Shown here: positions 3 to 57,172 of the stretch, piece after piece
How positions within the stretch are numbered: the stretch's first letter is position 1
Layout: the number at the start of each line of letters is the position of its first letter
Assembly: GCF_009914755.1 (NCBI RefSeq)
Contig: NC_060934.1
Origin: the human T2T-CHM13v2.0 reference genome, Homo sapiens
Strand: one strand, 5' to 3'
DNA: 64,000 bases
Program-made: the position numbers and the translations under genes
The notes under the pieces: model-generated
The model's database searches: none
Seen by the model: only the letters and a program-made list of their open reading frames with translations
What the model was told of the DNA's origin: nothing

Positions 3-304
3 TCAGAGCTCCCTGGACATTCCCTGGCCAAGTGTCATCCCTGTGTCAAATGGATGGGATGCCAGGTAATCCTTGTACTCCCCGTCAATCAGTTTGGCGG
101 CATTGTTCCTGGCAAACCAGCAGTCTATCTGCTCTTCCCCGTTGTAAATCTTCCTTTGCTTCCAGACCACTGGGACTTGGTGGCCTTTCACTGTTAGGAC
201 GGCCTCAGGCCCCTCTCCCACCTGAAGGAGCAGAGGGTGAGTGAGGTTCTGGCTGGGCCCTGCAGGGTCTTCTGTGAGTCTGGCATCCTGATTCAGGAAC
301 TGAC
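3..304 (-). CDS. ITIH5: ITIH5 last coding exon (exon 14): (G)QFLNQDARL…GMTLGQGMSREL*
   Basis: Acceptor ttccttgtcctcccag|GT at 305/304; phase 1 matches exon 13; TGA at 5-3; ORF 3..326. Confidence 0.97.
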
Positions 305-1185
305 CTGGGAGGACAAGGAAAAGCATCGGGTCTCAGTCAAATGCAGAAACCTCGTGCTGAACTCCAACTTCAGAGCTATCAGTGGCAGAAAGGCTTACAA
401 CTGGCCACAGCCCAAGACTGGACTCTCCCAGTGACATGGAAGAACATGTGCTCTGGGGGGCAGGGTGGAGAGAGCTGAGGATTTATCCACATTGTGGGAT
501 TTACCCATGACTGCTGGAAGCTTCCCAGCTGCTAACACTAGAAAGTTGTGTAACCTACACATAGTGATAACCACGGTCTCCTACTGAGTCCAGAGGACAG
601 GACGGGGCATATGAAGAGGGAAGTAGTGTTCCATCTTCTCTCTGTCCTCTTCCCAGTCACAGGCCCACCTCCTTTCTATCCGTCTCAGGTCTGTGCCGGG
701 TGGGGGTGGAAAGCAGTCAGCTCAGATCCTCTCTGACCCTCGTCCTCAGGACTCTCCTGGTCAGATGGCAGCACTGCTCAGGCCACAGGAATAAAGAGCT
801 GTGTCTGCAAGGGGAGCTCATGCTGGGCCGCCAGGCCCCACGAAACGCGGCCAGCTCAAGAGCCAGGAAATCCTGCCTACTAAACTGAGCCCTGACAATG
901 GCTTGCTCTTTATTTTTGGGCAAGGGGCCCACATGAAATTACACGTTGAAGAAAGCTGGGTAGAATGGCCCGCCTGCTGGGCACGGCCACGTGGGTGCCC
1001 CCCCGGTGGGGGTGTCGCTCAGGCTGGGCGCTGGGCAGGGCTGCCTCGTGTCTGTGTATTCTTGCTGAGAGCAAAGGAACTGGACCCTCAGGTGACTACA
1101 TTTTAATTCCTCATTCATTTTCCCAGAAGGCTAAAGAGAACTACTGGTTTATAAAGCCCATTCCTAGCTCACAAAGCCCAGGAAG

Positions 1186-1290
1186 GAATCTAATTTTCAT
1201 ATTACATATGTAGTAATCTAATGTTCATATTACATATATAGTAATCGAATTTTCATATTACATATGTAATTTTCATGTTACATATATAGT
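1186..1290. repeat. About 3.5 copies of a ~28-bp AT-rich tandem repeat (taatctaattttcatattacatatgtag)
   Basis: Directly visible repeated unit. Confidence 0.8.
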
Positions 1291-1636
1291 CATGCACCAC
1301 ATCATGACATTTTAATCAATGATGGACTGAAAATATGATGGTGGTCCCATAAGATTATAATAGCATATTTTTAGTGTACCTTTTCTATGTCTAGATATGT
1401 TTAGATGAACAAATACTTATCATCGTGTTGCAATTGCCTGCAGTAGTCCATGCAGTCACATGCTGTACAGGTTTGCAGCCCGGGAGCAATAGGAGACACC
1501 ACATAGCCTAGCTGAGTGGGTAGTATGCGACACTATCTAGAGAGGTTTGTGTAAGGATATTCTAGATGGTCACGTAATGACCAAATCACCTAACGACCAT
1601 TAGAATGTATCCCTGTCATTAAGCAAGGCATGACTG
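1287..1636 (+). mobile_element. Tigger3a/MER7-like Tc1-mariner MITE
   Basis: Terminal inverted repeats (t)agtcatgc…gcatgactg; internal ggtggtcccataagattataat; about 350 bp; TA at the left flank. Confidence 0.85.
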
Positions 1637-1988
1637 TGTGTGTCGGTGGGTGTGAATATATATAATATGTACATACATACACAGACTGTGTATGTGTACA
1701 CACACACATATATACAGACTGTGTGTATATATACACACACACACCATAGACTGTATACATACATACATATATACATACATACACAGACTGTATATGTATA
1801 CACACACACATACATACATATACAGACTGTGTGTGTATATATATATATACACACACCATACATACACAGACTGTATACATACATATACATATACACACAC
1901 GTTCATACATATAGACTGTATACCTACATATATACATATATACATACATAGACTGTATATATATATACATATATACACACATAGACTG

Positions 1989-2024
<36 letters not shown>

Positions 2025-2835
2025 TACATATACAGACTGTGTATATATACACACACCATACATACATACAGACTGTATATATAAACACACATACATACAC
2101 AGGCTATATATATATATATACACACATACACACACATCATACATACATATATACACAGAGTGTATACATACATATACACATATACACAGACTGTACATAT
2201 ATACACACACCATACATACAGACTGTATATATATATATACACACACACATCACACATAAAAGGATGGTATACATATATATATACATACACAGACTATGTA
2301 TGTATATATACACACATATCATGCACACATACATAGACAGTATACATACATATATACACATAGACTGTGTATATATACACACAGACATACATATGTACAT
2401 ATACAGACTGATTATATATTATGTATATGTGTGCATATATAGACTGTATATATACATACTTATCAGTCTGTGTATACATATATACATACAGACGGTATAT
2501 ATAATACATATATACATGTATATTTATAATATATAATACATTATGTATATGTATATATGTATAGACTGTATATATATACACACACATACATATACAGACC
2601 ATATACACATACATATACAGACTGCATATATAATATATATTATGTATTTATATAGAGAGACTATATACACATATGCAGTCTGCATGTACACATATGCATA
2701 CATACAGACTATATATAATACATATATACATATATATGTATAGTATATAATACATTATGTATATGTATATATGTATAGACTATATATATGTACACACACA
2801 CATACATACATACATATGCGGACTGTATATATAAT
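1637..2835. repeat. About 1.2-kb compound (TA)n/(CA)n microsatellite with a recurring agactgt spacer
   Basis: Directly visible; explains the Y/I/C/V/H/T-rich ORFs at 1590-2743. Confidence 0.97.
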
Positions 2836-2953
2836 GAAAACCACATTCCTATTGAATTTCTCAATCAAACGAAAGGTGTTGGCAATATCAGCTTTGCTTG
2901 GGAAATGTAACTCTGCCCTCTATGCCCAGCGTGAGGAGAGCGCAGCTTCCTAC

Positions 2954-3331
2954 CCAGCAGTCCGTGGCAGTTGCTGGAAAGGCCCTCGCTGTTGGCAATG
3001 TAGAAACCCAGGTGGTGTCGCTGGAAGGGCGCCGGCTTTTTGTAGAGGTGGATGAGGATGACAAAGGCTATGGAGCCCTGGATGGTGACGGTGACATTGG
3101 CGTTGGCAGACACGGACACCTCCAGCCCCCAGCTCCCCACCACCACACTCTGGTTGCAGGGGAGCACCAGTCTGTCCCCACCATCCAAGATGACTCTGCT
3201 CGGTGTGATCTCGAGATAAGATCTCTCTGGCTTGTTGATGAGGATGGTGATAGTGCGCAAGTAAGTGCGCTGTTTCTTGTGGCCATTTGGAGGGGCGGGT
3301 GCCCCAATTAACTCTCCGTTCACTGTGACAC
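2954..3331 (-). CDS. ITIH5: ITIH5 exon 13 (378 nt): (G)VTVNGELIGAPAPPNGHKKQRTY…SSNCHGLL(G), C-terminal domain
   Basis: Acceptor ttggcctttgag|GT; donor CTGG|gtagga; ORF 2865..3323; phase 1-1. Confidence 0.95.
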
Positions 3332-6579: not shown

Positions 6580-6696
6580 CAGAGTCCCTGTGATCAGAGA
6601 CCAGCCTGAGGATGTCCCCGGGCTGCCCATCAATGTTGAAGCACACGGTGAGTCTGCTCAGGGGGAAATCCACAACAAAGTGGGGATCACCATCCA
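6580..6696 (-). CDS. ITIH5: ITIH5 exon 12 (117 nt): VDGDPHFVVDFPLSRLTVCFNIDGQPGDILRLVSDHRDS(G), with the Asp-Pro cleavage motif
   Basis: Acceptor ttcttctgctctggcag|TG; donor TCTG|gtaagt; DPHFVV matches the ITIH DPHFII consensus. Confidence 0.97.
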
Positions 6697-8176: not shown

Positions 8177-8844
<668 letters not shown>

Positions 8845-9233
8845 TCTAGCTCATCTGACAGTTTTCTGAGAGTTTCTATGTGCACATACCACACCATTTC
8901 TACTCAAATTGTCCAAATTTCTTTACAAGGAAAGATAGTGCTTGCTCCAAAAAAGAGGGGAGGGTCAAAAAGTCATTACTCCAGGCAGCATCCAAGAGGA
9001 AGCTTTTCTGGCATTCCATAAAGCCTGTGTGTGTGTGTTGGAAGGAATTACATTCTGTCTCCCGCAGGCTGTGCGGACTCTATATCCACAGCTCATCTCC
9101 GGGATGTCCCTGGCTTTAGGAACTTGCACGTACAGCACAGCAGCAGAAAGGCAACAATCAAGACTTCCAGAGGATGATCTGGACACAGCAGAACAAAACC
9201 CAGTCATAGGTTGTTCTTTCCTCTGAATTTTTA

Positions 9234-9310
9234 TTATAGTTCCAGGATGCTGGCAAAAGGAAATTTCATGACATTTGAAAAAATCTGTTCTTCCCTTCTG
9301 AAGCCACGAA
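9234..9310 (-). CDS. ITIH5: ITIH5 alternative terminal exon, coding part: VRGFRREEQIFSNVMKFPFASILEL*
   Basis: Strong acceptor tttgtttttgttttcatttttttcag|TT at 9311/9310; phase 1 fits exon 11; 25 codons then TAA (9236-9234) overlapping AATAAA. The implied 702-aa length agrees with my unverified recollection of a short ITIH5 isoform. Confidence 0.75.
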
Positions 9311-16673: not shown

Positions 16674-17393
<720 letters not shown>

Positions 17394-46260: not shown

Positions 46261-46555
46261 TGCCTCAGAAAAATGCAGGATACATTTATTGTTTGTGGGC
46301 TGGTAGTTTGGCAGCAAATGTCATTACCCACTGTCTGTGAAGAGTTGGGAATGCATATTGTAATGATCAAACACAAGATGTTCCCCAAGTCCATGGAGCT
46401 TACAAATTACTCACCTGTAAGGTTACACATGAAATATCCAAATAGCCCTTGGGAACCCAATTTTGGACAGCGAGGGAGAAACCAATGTCCTAGAGCATAA
46501 AGTAAGCCTGTGAGTGAACCAAAATCGACATGCAGATCCCAGTCCTCCTACTCGT

Positions 46556-52951: not shown

Positions 52952-53068
52952 CTGCCGGAGTTTGGTTCCCACCATAGAAGCACTGCTGTCAAGCACGAAT
53001 ACCACATTCTTGGGTAAAGGAGGAAGGTCTTTAGGAGCAAAGTAGTGCACAAAATAGCCATTTAGAAC
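52952..53068 (-). CDS. ITIH5: ITIH5 exon 7 (117 nt): [39 protein letters not shown], start of vWA with MIDAS DxSxS
   Basis: Acceptor ttttccctccaccag|GT; donor GCAG|gtgagt; ORF 52880..53119; phase 0-0. Confidence 0.97.
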
Positions 53069-54082: not shown

Positions 54083-54252
54083 CTGGATGTCCCCAATGCT
54101 CTGTTCTCTATTGACGTCATATCTAATGATAAAGTCTCCCAAAATTCCATTCTGGGCAATCCTGGCTTGTTGTACTACAGTAGGTTTAAAAATTATGTTG
54201 GCAAATGTTTCATTTTGGTTAATGACAGTAGATGGGGGAGGCCCAGAATCAT
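54083..54252 (-). CDS. ITIH5: ITIH5 exon 6 (170 nt): (D)DSGPPPSTVINQNETFANIIFKPT…EQSIGDIQ
   Basis: Acceptor ctatcttgtttgcag|AT; donor CCAG|gtaata; ORF 53960..54262; phase 1-0. Confidence 0.96.
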
Positions 54253-54449
54253 CTGCAAACAAGATAGAAACATAATTAATAACTTAATATATATTTTTCC
54301 AAAAAGAAATAAAAACTGTTTGGCAGACACAGAGTTTTAGATTTCATTTTATTACAGGCTTGTATTTCACAGGAACTTCTAAGACTGTACTCATATATCA
54401 CAATGCGAGAGTTATGTCATCATATAGTTTCCTCTTATGCCTCTTTTTG

Positions 54450-54930
54450 AACCTTTTCTTATGAACATTTTTAAAACACACAAAAGTAGAGAGAATAGTA
54501 AAATGAACCCCTGTACCCATCACCCAACTTTAACAAACATCAGCATGTTACCAACCTTTTGTATGTTTTTATCTATTCCCCATTTTTTCCTAGAGCATTT
54601 TAAAACAAATTCCAGACACCATATTTCATCCATAAATACTCCAGTATGTCTTTACCTGTAAGAACTCTTTTACTAACATAACCACAAAACCATTATCACA
54701 AGTAACAAAATTAATGCTCAATGCCCTATTATTATCTAATTCTCAGTTTGTATTTAAATTTATCTGATTCCCTAAAGAAAGGGTCTTGGTATGGTTGATT
54801 TGCTTGAATGAAGATTAGAAGAGTCCCCAATCACATTCCATTTTTATTTCTTGCTTCTTTTAATCTCCAGTGTCTGCCTCCACCTCTTTTGTGATGCTGC
54901 ATATATGTGATAAATCGCTGGTCATTTGTC
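54450..54930 (-). mobile_element. Old L1M(C/E) 3' fragment
   Basis: caaaagtagagagaatagtaaaatgaacccctgtacccatcacccaac…cattttaaaacaaattccagacacc. Confidence 0.65.
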
Positions 54931-54956
54931 CTATGGGATTTCTCTTTTTCTGTATT

Positions 54957-55238
54957 CCTTTTTTTTTTTGAGACAGCGTCTCAATCTGTCACCCAGAGCG
55001 CAATGGTGCAATCACAGCTCACTTTTGGACTCAAGTGATTCTCTCACCTCAGCCTGCCAAGTAGCTGGGACTACAGGCACACACCAGCATACCTGGATCA
55101 TTTTTTGTTGTTGTTTTTTGTAGAGACAGGGTCTTGCTATGTTGCTCAGACTGGTCTTGAACTCCTAGGCTCAAGCCATCCTCCTGCCTCGGACTCCCAA
55201 AGTTCTAGGAGTACAGGCGTGAGCCACCATGCCCGGCT
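54957..55238 (-). mobile_element. Alu (AluJ-like, with internal deletions)
   Basis: Antisense Alu. Confidence 0.88.
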
Positions 55239-56239
55239 TACGGCTCATTAAAAAAAAAAAAATTCTCAAAGCTTTTTCACATGAAATTTAGGATATAAAT
55301 TAGAATTACAGAAAGATAAACAGATAAATGGATATTATGTAATTTATGAAAACCTAGTGTGATGACAGATTAAGCAAAGAGCATCCCATCTTTTAGTCCT
55401 GACCTTCATTTCCTGTTAGAACACAGAGAATTATTTAGCAAACTACTCACGTTTATAAACCCAAACAACACCATATCTATGTACTTAGCAATAAAACCCC
55501 AAAAGATGAGGTCTGCATGCACCCTGGAGAACATGAAAACATAAACAAGAATTCTTAATCATAAGGGCATGTGGAGGCTTTTTATCCAGATATTGAATCA
55601 AAGCCAGACTTAAAACTGCTGCAAAGCCTCTGATTATCTTTTTAAATGTACTCAAGTTGATAGCATGAAATAGGCTGACCAGCCATTTCCCATCTCCAAT
55701 TAGCAGAATGAAAAAGGAAATGAGGCGTTAAGTGGCCACAGTAATTTGTATTTAAAAATAAACTTCCTTCTGCTGAGGGTTTATTAGACACACAAGTCAA
55801 AGGAAGTTTAAACATTTCCTTTAACAAAATAGGCAATTATTTTTCAGAGACAATTTAGGTGTAACCTTAACAGGAACCACAAGGTAGAACAGATTCTTCT
55901 ATTATTTGCACTTATCAAGGACAGGGATTTTGGAAGTGATCAGAGAGCCAGCAAAGAGAAAAGGTTATTTTTGTAGGGAGACAGTTACATAAGAGAGAAC
56001 ACGAGTCCACAGATCTGCTCATCTGAAGGAGTTGGGAAAATCCAGACAGTGCATGGACAGGTGGCACAGCCCAGGTCACTACCAGCATGGTTGAAGATGC
56101 CTTAGACCCATTAGACAGGACAAAGAAACGGGTGCTGAAAAAGGAAAAGTCCTTGAAATTAAAGGAAACTGCATGCTGTCCAGGGTCAATCTCTCATTGG
56201 TGGTCATTGTTAAAGCACCCAGAGTGACAGGCATCATAA

Positions 56240-56468
56240 TATATCAGCTAAGAACGCACGATCATGGTCAGAAACCTGCATTCAAATATTGGTTTCACTT
56301 CTTAACAGCTGTGAGACTTTGAGCAAGTTACTCGGCCTTGGTTATCTCATCTGTAAAATGGATTAATGATAGTACCAATCTCACAGTATTGAAAAGATCA
56401 AGTGATGTCACGTACTTAGCACCATTTTCCAGTTCACAGTCAGCAGTCATGCTAGCTTATATCATTAC
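56240..56468 (+). mobile_element. MIR abutting the LTR
   Basis: gctgtgagactttgagcaagttact…ctcatctgtaaaatggattaatgatagtacc. Confidence 0.75.
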
Positions 56469-56830
56469 TGTATCAGTCCATTTTCACACTGTTATCAAGA
56501 AGTACCTGAGACTGGGTAGTTTATACAGAAAAGAGGTTTAATTGACTCACAGTTCCGCATGGCTGGGGAAGCCTCGGGAAACTTACAATCACGCAGAAGG
56601 CAAACGCAAAGCGAACACGTCTACAAGGCGGCAGGAGCGAGAGACAGAACTGGGAAGCGCCGGACTTTTAAACCATGAGATCTCGTGAGAACTCACTCAC
56701 TATCACGAGAACAGCAAGGGGGAAATTCACCTCCATGGTCCAATCACCTCCCACCAGGCCACTCCTCCGACACATGGGGATTACAATTCGAAATGCTATT
56801 TCCGTGGGGACACAGAGCCAAACCATATCA
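56469..56830 (-). mobile_element. MaLR solo LTR (THE1D/MSTA-like), sense to ITIH5; candidate internal promoter
   Basis: Minus strand runs TGATATGGTTTGGCTCTGTGTCCCCAC…GATTGTAAGTTTCC…TGTGAGTCAATTAAACCTC…GGACTGATACA; 5-bp TSD attac/atttc. Confidence 0.92.
56551..56560 (-). CDS. ITIH5: Coding part of an LTR-derived alternative first exon of ITIH5: ATG CGG AAC T| giving MRNY then DSGPPP of exon 6
   Basis: gccATGCGGAACT|gtgagt inside the sense LTR; phase 1 matches the exon 6 acceptor. The implied 728-aa product agrees with my unverified recollection of an annotated isoform. Confidence 0.7.
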
Positions 56831-56864
56831 ATTTCCAACCTTAACTATATAAAATAGAAGGAGG

Positions 56865-57172
56865 GGCCAGGCCCGGTGGCTCACGCCTGTAATCCCAGCA
56901 CTTTGGGAGGCTGAGGCGGGTGGATCACCTGAGGTCAGGAGTTTGAGATCAGCCTGGCCAACATGGAGAAACCTCGTCTCTACTAAAAATACAAAAAATT
57001 AGGTGGGTGTGGTGGCTGTAATCCCAGCTACTCAGGAGGCTGAGGCAGGAGAATATCGCTTGAACCAGGGAGGCGGAGGTTGCAGTGAGCTGAGATAGTG
57101 CCATTGGACTCCAGCCTGGGCAACAAGAGCAAAATTCCATCCCACCACCCCCTACCCCCGCAAAAAAAAAAA
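56865..57172 (+). mobile_element. Alu (AluS-like) with a C-rich tail
   Basis: Full Alu; TSD aaaatagaaggag. Confidence 0.92.

What the first reader, a model, noticed from the sequence alone, without database searches (positions are those of the whole stretch)
56469..56830. Retroviral LTR exapted as internal promoter, start codon and first exon of a leaderless ITIH5
Seen: a complete sense THE1/MST-type LTR with a TATA-like TTTAAAAG (about 56672-56665), then gccATGCGGAACT|GTGAGT (56560-56545). The 10 coding nt are in phase with exon 6, 2.3 kb downstream, giving MRNYDSGPPPST…. Established: MaLR LTRs act as alternative promoters (for example THE1B-CSF1R) using this family donor, and ITIH5's signal peptide and VIT domain are encoded upstream of exon 6. 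Inference: a primate-specific, non-secreted vWA-containing ITIH5 that is independent of the main promoter, which is known to be methylation-silenced in some cancers. I recall an annotated isoform with this N-terminus; its LTR origin and function are the points worth pursuing.
Basis: partly seen in the sequence, partly recalled or inferred. Interest (0 to 1): 0.8.

Follow-up and report, generated by a model that had tools for sequence, protein, structure and literature searches.

The report
Retroviral LTR drives short ITIH5 isoform
An ancient retrovirus-like repeat inside the human ITIH5 gene supplies the promoter signals, start codon and splice site of an already annotated shorter ITIH5 transcript; this is an ordinary kind of event, but this copy has kept and gained unusually many CpG sites.

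Summary
Window 56830-56469 (minus strand) is a full-length 362-bp solitary LTR of a high-copy family. It carries TTTAAAAG, then 29 nt later the 5' end of the RefSeq alternative exon (56643-56551). That exon holds the transcript's first ATG (56560) and the donor ACT|GTGAGT. Joined to exon 54252, it opens a 728-codon frame through all nine ITIH5 exons in the window.

The TATA-like box, ATG and donor are inherited family features: ATG plus GT at the same spacing occurs in 21 of 29 nearest copies. The isoform lacks the VIT-coding part, which lies upstream at window 78.7 kb, and has no hydrophobic N-terminus. It keeps vWA and ITI_HC_C.

One new point: this copy has 15 CpGs against 0-11 (median 3) in 93 related copies. 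It has 8 private CpG gains clustered around the start site, while GC outside the CpG positions is ordinary. That pattern fits long-term germline hypomethylation.

Promoter activity, translation, localisation and primate restriction could not be tested here. Five full-text searches and four sets of supplements gave no printed link between human ITIH5 and an LTR. Verdict: a new member of a known kind, of moderate interest.

The parts
56469..56830 (-). Full-length solitary LTR, 362 bp, TG...CA ends, same orientation as ITIH5
   Evidence: for the sequence; 39 other scored copies are 81-83% identical over the full length; 7 of 50 related copies adjoin a shared internal sequence; this copy does not.
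56831..56835 (-). Upstream half of the putative 5-bp target-site duplication (GAAAT)
   Evidence: flanks; 4 of 5 bases match GTAAT at 56464-56468.
56464..56468 (-). Downstream half of the putative target-site duplication (GTAAT)
56740..56744 (-). ATTGG (inverted CCAAT), about 100 nt upstream of the annotated start
   Evidence: for the position; inherited, present in 17 of 29 nearest copies and 20 of 64 position-ordered copies. Factor binding is not tested.
56665..56672 (-). TATA-like TTTAAAAG (LTR positions 159-166)
   Evidence: Identical in 15 of 29 nearest copies; TTTATAAG is the other common state.
56551..56643 (-). Alternative first exon, 93 nt: 83-nt leader plus 10 coding nt. Its 5' end lies 29 nt after the first T of the TATA-like box.
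   Evidence: Hub RefSeq row.
56575..56662 (.). CpG-enriched patch around the start site. It holds 7 of this copy's 8 private CpG gains (LTR positions 169, 172, 192, 218, 225, 238, 255).
56558..56560 (-). Start codon, context GCCATGC, the first ATG of the transcript
   Evidence: ATG is kept in 21 of 29 nearest copies and 47 of 64 position-ordered copies.
56545..56550 (-). Splice donor GTGAGT, after ...GGAACT
   Evidence: GTGAGT is identical in 26 of 29 nearest copies.
56537..56542 (-). ATTAAA, the LTR's likely polyadenylation signal, 3 nt into the intron and therefore removed by splicing
   Evidence: for the position; its role is inferred.
54253..56550 (-). Intron of about 2.3 kb between the LTR exon and exon 6
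   Evidence: The acceptor is ttctatcttgtttgcag|AT.
54083..54252 (-). ITIH5 exon 6, the first shared coding exon (phase 1)
   Evidence: No Pfam hit. Aligns to ITIH4 residues 206-253.
52952..53068 (-). Exon carrying the vWA metal-site motif LDSSAS (DxSxS)
   Evidence: No Pfam hit on its own, at 39 aa.
16674..16983 (-). Exon encoding the C-terminal half of the vWA domain
   Evidence: PF00092, E 2.2e-8, profile positions 81-164.
3..3331 (-). The last two coding exons (2954-3331 and 3-304), encoding ITI_HC_C, and the stop codon
   Evidence: PF06668, E 8.1e-45 and 1.7e-10..

Best explanation
A solitary LTR of the MaLR-type retroelement family (THE1/MST group by recalled appearance; subfamily not resolved) sits in sense orientation in the ITIH5 intron upstream of exon 6. 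It works as a self-contained cassette of promoter, leader, AUG and donor.

Transcription starts about 29 nt after the LTR's TATA-like box. The 93-nt LTR exon contributes the first AUG and 10 coding nt. The LTR's own GTGAGT donor, which lies just before the LTR's ATTAAA signal, splices to exon 6 in phase.

The mRNA encodes a 728-aa ITIH5 that begins MRN-Y and lacks the signal peptide and the VIT region. It keeps the vWA domain with its DxSxS site, the DPHF site and ITI_HC_C.

- Shown: the sequence anatomy, the open frame, the match to the RefSeq exon, the inheritance of all three signals from the repeat family, and an exceptional CpG content in this copy.
- Inferred: that the LTR is the active promoter, that it has long been unmethylated in the germ line, and that the protein stays in the cytosol.
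- Whether that protein is stable or useful is open. I put it at roughly one in four.
For: - Anatomy and open frame.
- Annotation: the hub's RefSeq row gives exon 56551-56643, and its 5' end lies 29 nt after TTTAAAAG, the usual TATA-to-start spacing (established knowledge).
- Leader: no upstream ATG, and an in-frame TAG within it.
- Repeat family: 39 other scored copies at 81-83% identity over the full length, from 6457 candidates. The donor 27-mer occurs 1647 times against 0 for the control. 7 of 50 copies adjoin a shared internal sequence, and this copy is solitary.
- Signals inherited: TTTAAAAG in 15 of 29, ATG in 21 of 29, GTGAGT in 26 of 29, and ATG plus GT at the same spacing in 21 of 29. 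ATG is kept in 47 of 64 copies of a position-ordered sample.
- This copy evolved differently from its relatives. It has 15 CpGs against 1-8 in the 29 nearest copies and 0-11 in 64 position-ordered copies. In LTR positions 150-280 it has 10, against 0-6. It has 8 private CpG gains and 6 retained CpGs, and 0 of 93 relatives reach either number. GC outside the CpG positions is ordinary, with 25 of 93 relatives at or above this copy.
- Domains: VIT is encoded at window 78709-78864, upstream of the LTR. vWA and ITI_HC_C lie in downstream exons. LDSSAS is present. There is no hydrophobic stretch in the first 75 aa.
- Literature passages: THE1 LTRs have focused start sites and intrinsic promoter activity (PMC12963367). 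MaLR LTR promoters with a donor in the LTR are known (PMC6102241; PMC5134097).
Against: - No start-site, junction-read, ribosome or peptide data could be consulted.
- ITIH5 is absent from the 3 readable files, of 9 listed, of a RAMPAGE atlas of repeat-derived start sites (PMC12963367).
- Human ITIH5 is absent from the 4 supplement files of the oocyte LTR-transcript study; the only hit is mouse Itih5 (PMC6102241).
- It is absent from 7 supplement files of the DUX4 study and from 1 file of the Hodgkin LTR study.
- By homology to HC1, the N-terminal 45-265 segment forms most of a 16-stranded β-sandwich together with residues 601-652 (PMC7170535 passages). The truncation therefore probably leaves that domain broken.
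- Pfam gave no hit for 5 of 8 exon translations, so the N-terminal half of vWA is supported only by the motif.
- The CpG comparison aligns every copy to this one, so CpGs inside insertions of relatives are missed. The raw counts do not have this bias.
- Loose CpG-island criteria are met in many other places in the window, so that criterion alone says little.
Confidence: 0.75

Rival explanations
1. By-product without function. The LTR promoter fires weakly or only where DNA methylation is relaxed, for example in placenta, germ line or tumours. The transcript was captured as a cDNA and annotated. Its protein is not made, or is unstable because one structural domain is cut. This accepts the anatomy and disputes only the exaptation.
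For: - All signals are simply inherited family features, and the chance of a phase match is 1 in 3.
- ITIH5 does not appear in the readable supplements of four LTR-transcript studies.
- The truncation removes most of the HC-Hybrid2 sandwich, by homology.
- No paper mentions the isoform.
Against: - The CpG excess of this copy is confined to CpG positions and centred on the start site. A copy that is methylated like its relatives would not be expected to show this.
- The open frame, the first AUG in a purine -3 context and the absence of upstream ATGs favour translation if the mRNA exists.
Confidence: 0.45
2. The LTR matters mainly as a regulatory island, that is an unmethylated enhancer or boundary for ITIH5 or a neighbouring gene. 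The spliced coding transcript is incidental to that role.
For: - The CpG gain and retention signature shows unusual evolution of the DNA, not of the coding potential.
- An inherited inverted CCAAT box is present.
- Passages of PMC12963367 report NFY and USF enrichment at MaLR-derived start sites.
Against: - The CpG gains cluster from 20 nt upstream to 68 nt downstream of the annotated start, as at a promoter rather than an enhancer.
- An annotated transcript starts there (hub row).
Confidence: 0.15
3. Annotation artefact. The 5' end at 56643 is a truncated cDNA end of a longer RNA that starts upstream, so the LTR is only exonised and is not a promoter.
For: RefSeq 5' ends are often the longest cDNA rather than mapped start sites (general knowledge). 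No start-site data were available here.
Against: - The 5' end lies 29 nt after the TATA-like box.
- THE1 LTRs are reported to have focused native start sites (PMC12963367 passage).
- The hub lists no further upstream exon for this transcript.
Confidence: 0.07

Closest known systems
THE1D LTR promoter of IL2RB in human placenta (passages of review PMC13313205)
   Same: A simian MaLR LTR serves as a tissue-specific alternative promoter of a host gene. Activity is governed by local hypomethylation of the LTR.
   Different: No tissue or methylation data exist here for ITIH5. In ITIH5 the LTR is intronic and also supplies the start codon, so the protein is N-terminally truncated.
THE1B LTR promoter of CSF1R in Hodgkin lymphoma (PMC5134097 passages; PMC3836709 passage)
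   Same: A solitary MaLR LTR initiates transcription and uses a donor inside the LTR to splice into host exons.
   Different: The CSF1R LTR lies 6 kb upstream of the gene and yields the full-length protein. It is a cancer derepression event, whereas the ITIH5 exon is in the reference annotation.
Intragenic MTC (MaLR) promoter giving the truncated DICER1 isoform of mouse oocytes (PMC6102241 passage)
   Same: An intronic MaLR LTR drives an N-terminally truncated isoform of the host protein.
   Different: That case is rodent-specific and oocyte-specific, with a demonstrated function. Human ITIH5 is not in that paper's held supplement files.
MaLR LTR promoters in ERBB4 introns 12 and 20, and THE1B-HEY1 (PMC5134097; PMC3836709)
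   Same: Intronic or upstream MaLR LTRs give transcripts that encode N-truncated proteins.
   Different: In those cases translation starts at a downstream host ATG, or the start is undefined. Here the ATG and the first three codons come from the LTR itself.

Membership tests
LTR of an LTR retroelement (MaLR-type) | TG...CA termini and a short target-site duplication | tested here: met
   TG and CA ends are present. The flanks GAAAT and GTAAT agree at 4 of 5 bases. That the duplication should be 5 bp is recalled, not tested.
LTR of an LTR retroelement (MaLR-type) | A dispersed high-copy family of full-length units of similar size | tested here: met
   6457 candidates; the 39 other scored copies are 81-83% identical over 1-362. 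The donor 27-mer occurs 1647 times. The 64 full-length copies are 337-415 bp long.
LTR of an LTR retroelement (MaLR-type) | Some copies flank a shared internal region, while most are solitary | tested here: met
   2 of 50 copies share a downstream sequence starting at the LTR edge, and 5 of 50 share a purine-rich upstream sequence ending at the LTR edge. The ITIH5 copy has neither.
LTR of an LTR retroelement (MaLR-type) | U3-R-U5 order of signals: TATA-like box, then start, then polyadenylation signal | tested here: met
   TTTAAAAG at LTR position 159, annotated start at 188, ATTAAA at 289.
THE1/MST subfamilies of ERVL-MaLR | A match to a named Dfam or Repbase consensus | not testable with these tools
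   No repeat library is held. The name rests on recalled appearance.
THE1/MST subfamilies of ERVL-MaLR | Restriction to primates, with an orthologous insertion present in simians only | not testable with these tools
   No primate genomes are held. Passages of PMC10735291 state that MST and THE1 are primate-only, and that MSTB, MSTA and THE1A-D are simian-only.
Exapted LTR alternative promoter | Transcript 5' end inside the LTR at the native start position | tested here: met
   The RefSeq exon starts at 56643, 29 nt after the TATA-like box (hub row). This rests on annotation, not on start-site mapping.
Exapted LTR alternative promoter | Direct evidence of initiation (CAGE, RAMPAGE or 5' RACE) and tissue pattern | not testable with these tools
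   Only 3 of the 9 listed supplement files of the RAMPAGE atlas could be read, and none names ITIH5.
Exapted LTR alternative promoter | Non-neutral evolution of the copy | tested here: inconclusive
   The CpG count, private CpG gains and retained CpGs exceed all 93 relatives. GC elsewhere is ordinary. This suggests germline hypomethylation, but no orthologues or methylation data were available.
ITIH heavy chain (the protein product) | Signal peptide and VIT domain | tested here: not met
   VIT positions 1-52 are encoded at window 78709-78864, upstream of the LTR. Maximum hydropathy in the first 75 aa is 0.65. The short isoform is therefore an incomplete ITIH.
ITIH heavy chain (the protein product) | vWA domain with DxSxS, DPHF site and ITI_HC_C | tested here: met
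   PF00092 at E 2.2e-8; PF06668 at E 8.1e-45 and 1.7e-10. LDSSAS is present. DGDPHFVV is seen in the exon translation.

The most novel reading that the evidence does not exclude
This LTR copy has been kept unmethylated in the primate germ line and has been under selection as a second ITIH5 promoter, as its unique CpG gain and retention signature would suggest. It would give simian primates an intracellular, signal-less vWA-containing ITIH5 with a function of its own, for instance in placenta or germ cells. Its expression would be uncoupled from the canonical promoter, which is silenced by methylation in tumours.
Probability: 0.15. Interest if true: 0.6.

Novelty: new member of a known kind. 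Interest (0 to 1): 0.35.

Why it matters
ITIH5 is studied as a secreted matrix protein and as a tumour suppressor silenced by methylation of its main promoter (PMC9496810 passages). A second, repeat-derived promoter would produce a leaderless form without VIT. RNA or methylation assays aimed at the 3' exons or at the main CpG island could then misread ITIH5 status. It would also add a clean case in which an LTR supplies promoter, AUG and donor together. Because 21 of 29 nearest copies carry ATG plus GT at the same spacing, the family is a ready-made cassette for any phase-1 exon downstream. The CpG comparison with sister copies is a cheap, sequence-only way to flag LTR copies that have probably been unmethylated in the germ line for a long time.

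Tried and rejected
- Paper searches that found no link between ITIH5 and an LTR: ITIH5 with LTR, 8 papers; ITIH5 with ERV, 31 papers of which 15 were listed; ITIH5 with 'transposable', 16 papers; ITIH5 with 'transposable element' and 'alternative promoter', 1 paper. Judged by titles and, for two papers, by passages, none links ITIH5 to an LTR.
- A search for accession numbers recalled from memory found 0 papers.
- Two searches did not force ITIH5 as a term and were uninformative on this point.
- Two catalogues of repeat-derived transcripts requested by DOI are not held.
- Oocyte-promoter idea: the oocyte LTR-transcript study lists only mouse Itih5, antisense from an MT2_Mm element. There is therefore no support for activity in the human oocyte.
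- DUX4 idea: ITIH5 is not in the 7 supplement files. The DUX4 motif itself was not printed in the passages I saw, so I did not scan for it.
- General GC-biased gene conversion as the cause of the CpG excess: GC outside the CpG positions is ordinary, so I rate it unlikely.
- CpG-island criteria: they are met at the LTR but also at many other places in the window, so I dropped them as evidence.
- The subfamily could not be named without a repeat library, and I built no consensus.
- Folding the spliced protein was not attempted, because the joined sequence may not be typed into the tools.

Full report
**What is in the sequence.**
On the minus strand, window 56830-56469 is a 362-bp element with TG...CA ends. 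Its flanks are GAAAT and GTAAT, which agree at 4 of 5 bases.

- TTTAAAAG lies at 56672-56665.
- The hub's RefSeq table lists an exon of another ITIH5 transcript at 56551-56643. Its 5' end is therefore 29 nt after the first T of the TATA-like box, and its 3' end is exactly the ACT|GTGAGT junction.
- The 83-nt leader has no ATG and contains an in-frame TAG. The first ATG is at 56560 in the context GCCATGC.
- Joining the 10 coding nt to exon 54252-54083 and the eight following annotated exons gives 2187 nt. That is 728 codons ending at the normal stop, starting MRNYDSGPPPSTVINQNETFANIIFKPTVVQQAR.
- The acceptor has a long pyrimidine tract.

**It is an LTR.**
The window's genome is held.

- The 362 bp gave 6457 first-look candidates. 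40 were scored, and the 39 other copies are 81-83% identical over essentially the whole length.
- The 27-mer across the donor occurs 1647 times (806 forward, 841 reverse), against 0 for the reversed control.
- Of 50 other full-length copies with 1.5-kb flanks, 2 share a downstream sequence beginning at the LTR edge. Another 5 share a purine-rich upstream sequence ending at the LTR edge.
- So 7 of 50 copies are still joined to a common internal region and the rest are solitary. The ITIH5 copy is solitary.
- The order TATA-like (position 159), annotated start (188), donor (281), ATTAAA (289) is that of U3-R-U5.

The label THE1/MST comes from recalled appearance. Passages of PMC10735291 state that all MST and THE1 members are primate-only, and that MSTB, MSTA and THE1A-D are simian-only. 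The primate restriction of the isoform follows only under that label.

**The signals are inherited.**

| Signal | 29 most similar copies | 64 full-length copies of the position-ordered sample |
|---|---|---|
| TTTAAAAG identical | 15 | TTTAAAAG and TTTATAAG are the two common states |
| ATG | 21 | 47 |
| GTGAGT | 26 | fixed by the way the sample was chosen |
| ATG plus GT at the same 10-nt spacing | 21 | not counted |

The position-ordered sample consists of 90 chromosome-1 copies chosen only by the CpG-free 27-mer; 64 of them are full length, and 26 partial copies were dropped. The inverted CCAAT (ATTGG, position 87) is also inherited, in 17 of 29 and 20 of 64 copies.

The family is thus a portable cassette of promoter, AUG and phase-1 donor. 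Its fit to exon 6 needed only a 1-in-3 phase match.

**What the isoform lacks and keeps.**

- Pfam VIT (positions 1-52, E 1.3e-9) matches G000:C10:7642709-7642864 on the minus strand. That is window 78709-78864, about 22 kb upstream of the LTR in the direction of transcription.
- Of 8 exon translations scanned, 3 gave hits: vWA (E 2.2e-8, profile 81-164) in 16676-16981, and ITI_HC_C in 2955-3329 (E 8.1e-45) and 6-302 (E 1.7e-10).
- The other 5 exon translations, including exon 6 and the two short exons before the vWA hit, gave none.
- The exon 52952-53068 carries LDSSAS, a DxSxS metal-site motif.
- DGDPHFVV is in 6581-6694.
- The highest 15-residue Kyte-Doolittle mean in the first 75 aa is 0.65, so nothing resembles a signal peptide. 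This is a crude test, and no signal-peptide predictor is on hand.

The nearest solved relatives are ITIH1 (6FPY, 6FPZ) and ITIH4 (9C4F). Exon 6 aligns to ITIH4 residues 206-253. In HC1 the large β-sandwich 'HC-Hybrid2' is built from residues 45-265 together with 601-652 (PMC7170535 passages). By homology, the short isoform loses most of the N-terminal strands of that domain while keeping vWA and Hybrid1. This is a reason to doubt stable folding.

**An unexpected property of this copy.**
It has far more CpGs than its relatives.

| Measure | This copy | Relatives |
|---|---|---|
| CpGs, whole LTR | 15 | 1-8, median 3 (29 nearest copies) |
| CpGs, whole LTR | 15 | 0-11, median 3 (64 position-ordered copies) |
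| CpGs, LTR positions 150-280 | 10 | 0-6, median 1 (64 copies) |
| Private CpG gains | 8 | 0-6 (0 of 93 reach 8) |
| Retained ancestral-type CpGs | 6 | 0-5 (0 of 93 reach 6) |
| GC, whole LTR | 0.489 | median 0.451 (1 of 93 at or above) |
| GC outside the 30 CpG positions | 0.443 | median 0.435 (25 of 93 at or above) |

- Site by site, 6 of this copy's CpGs lie where the relatives show a CG/TG/CA mixture, which marks retained ancestral CpGs.
- Another 8 lie where the relatives carry one non-CpG state, which marks private gains. These are at positions 27, 169, 172, 192, 218, 225, 238 and 255.
- Seven of the eight gains lie from 20 nt upstream to 68 nt downstream of the annotated start.
- Within positions 150-280, GC outside the CpG positions is below the relatives' median. 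General GC-biased conversion is therefore an unlikely cause.
- The neighbouring 200-bp bins have CpG observed/expected ratios of 0.41-0.44, against 0.82 over the LTR core.

The simplest reading is that this copy has long escaped germline methylation, as active promoters do. This is an inference.

Caveats: all copies were aligned to this one, so one search misses CpGs inside insertions of relatives. The raw counts do not have that bias. Loose CpG-island criteria are met at many other places in the window, so I do not use them as evidence.

**What could not be shown.**
Nothing here measures initiation, splicing, translation or localisation.

- ITIH5 is not named in the 3 readable files, of 9 listed, of a RAMPAGE atlas of repeat-derived start sites. 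The large tables could not be opened.
- It is not named in 7 supplement files of the DUX4 study.
- It is not named in 1 supplement file of the Hodgkin LTR study.
- In the 4 supplement files of the oocyte study, the only hit is mouse Itih5 with an antisense MT2_Mm transcript.

Supplements that I could not read may bear on the claim that the case is undescribed.

**Comparison with known cases, and novelty.**
Intronic or upstream MaLR LTRs acting as alternative promoters are well known:

- THE1B-CSF1R and the ERBB4 intronic MaLR LTRs (PMC5134097 passages);
- THE1B-HEY1 (PMC3836709 passages);
- THE1D-IL2RB in placenta (PMC13313205 passages);
- the MTC-driven truncated DICER1 of mouse oocytes (PMC6102241 passage).

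The ITIH5 transcript itself is in RefSeq. What I did not find in print is its LTR origin. The searches were ITIH5 with LTR, ERV, 'transposable', and 'transposable element' plus 'alternative promoter'. Two further searches did not force ITIH5 as a term, and a search for recalled accession numbers found nothing.

The distinctive points are that the LTR supplies the AUG as well as the promoter and donor, that the product loses its secretion signal, and that this copy carries the CpG signature described above.

**Verdict.**
This is a new member of a known kind, of moderate interest.

Noticed in passing
window 46415-46489 (minus strand): The 75-nt exon listed for other ITIH5 transcripts is flanked by AG and GT. 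It is open in the frame left by exon 52952-53068, so it would insert 25 residues (DIGFSLAVQNWVPKGYLDISCVTLQ) right after the exon that carries the vWA metal-site motif. It is not known which promoter's transcripts include it.
   Followed up: partly
window 8317-9310 (minus strand): An alternative 994-nt terminal exon follows a pyrimidine-rich acceptor and ends at an AATAAA. It would give a C-terminally shortened ITIH5 without the DPHF site and ITI_HC_C.
   Followed up: no
L032 (G000:C1:11124396 region) and L035 (G000:C1:14100626 region): Two other copies of the same LTR family have 11 and 10 CpGs, against a median of 3. They may also be long-term unmethylated and could be promoters.
   Followed up: no
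window 56831-57000 and 56300-56400 (minus strand): By eye (recalled consensus, not tested), the LTR is bordered upstream by an antisense Alu-like sequence and downstream by a MIR-like sequence.
   Followed up: no
mouse Itih5 (supplement of PMC6102241): In mouse oocytes, an MT2_Mm (ERVL) LTR-initiated transcript runs antisense to Itih5. This is an unrelated LTR event at the orthologous gene.
   Followed up: no
LTR family copies L016, L024, L028, L040, L060 and L020, L030: Five copies share a purine-rich sequence ending ...CAGAA or ...GGAA directly upstream of the LTR, like a polypurine tract. Two copies share ...AATTGGTAC... directly downstream, like a primer-binding region. These are presumably 3' and 5' LTRs of retained internal elements.
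   Followed up: partly
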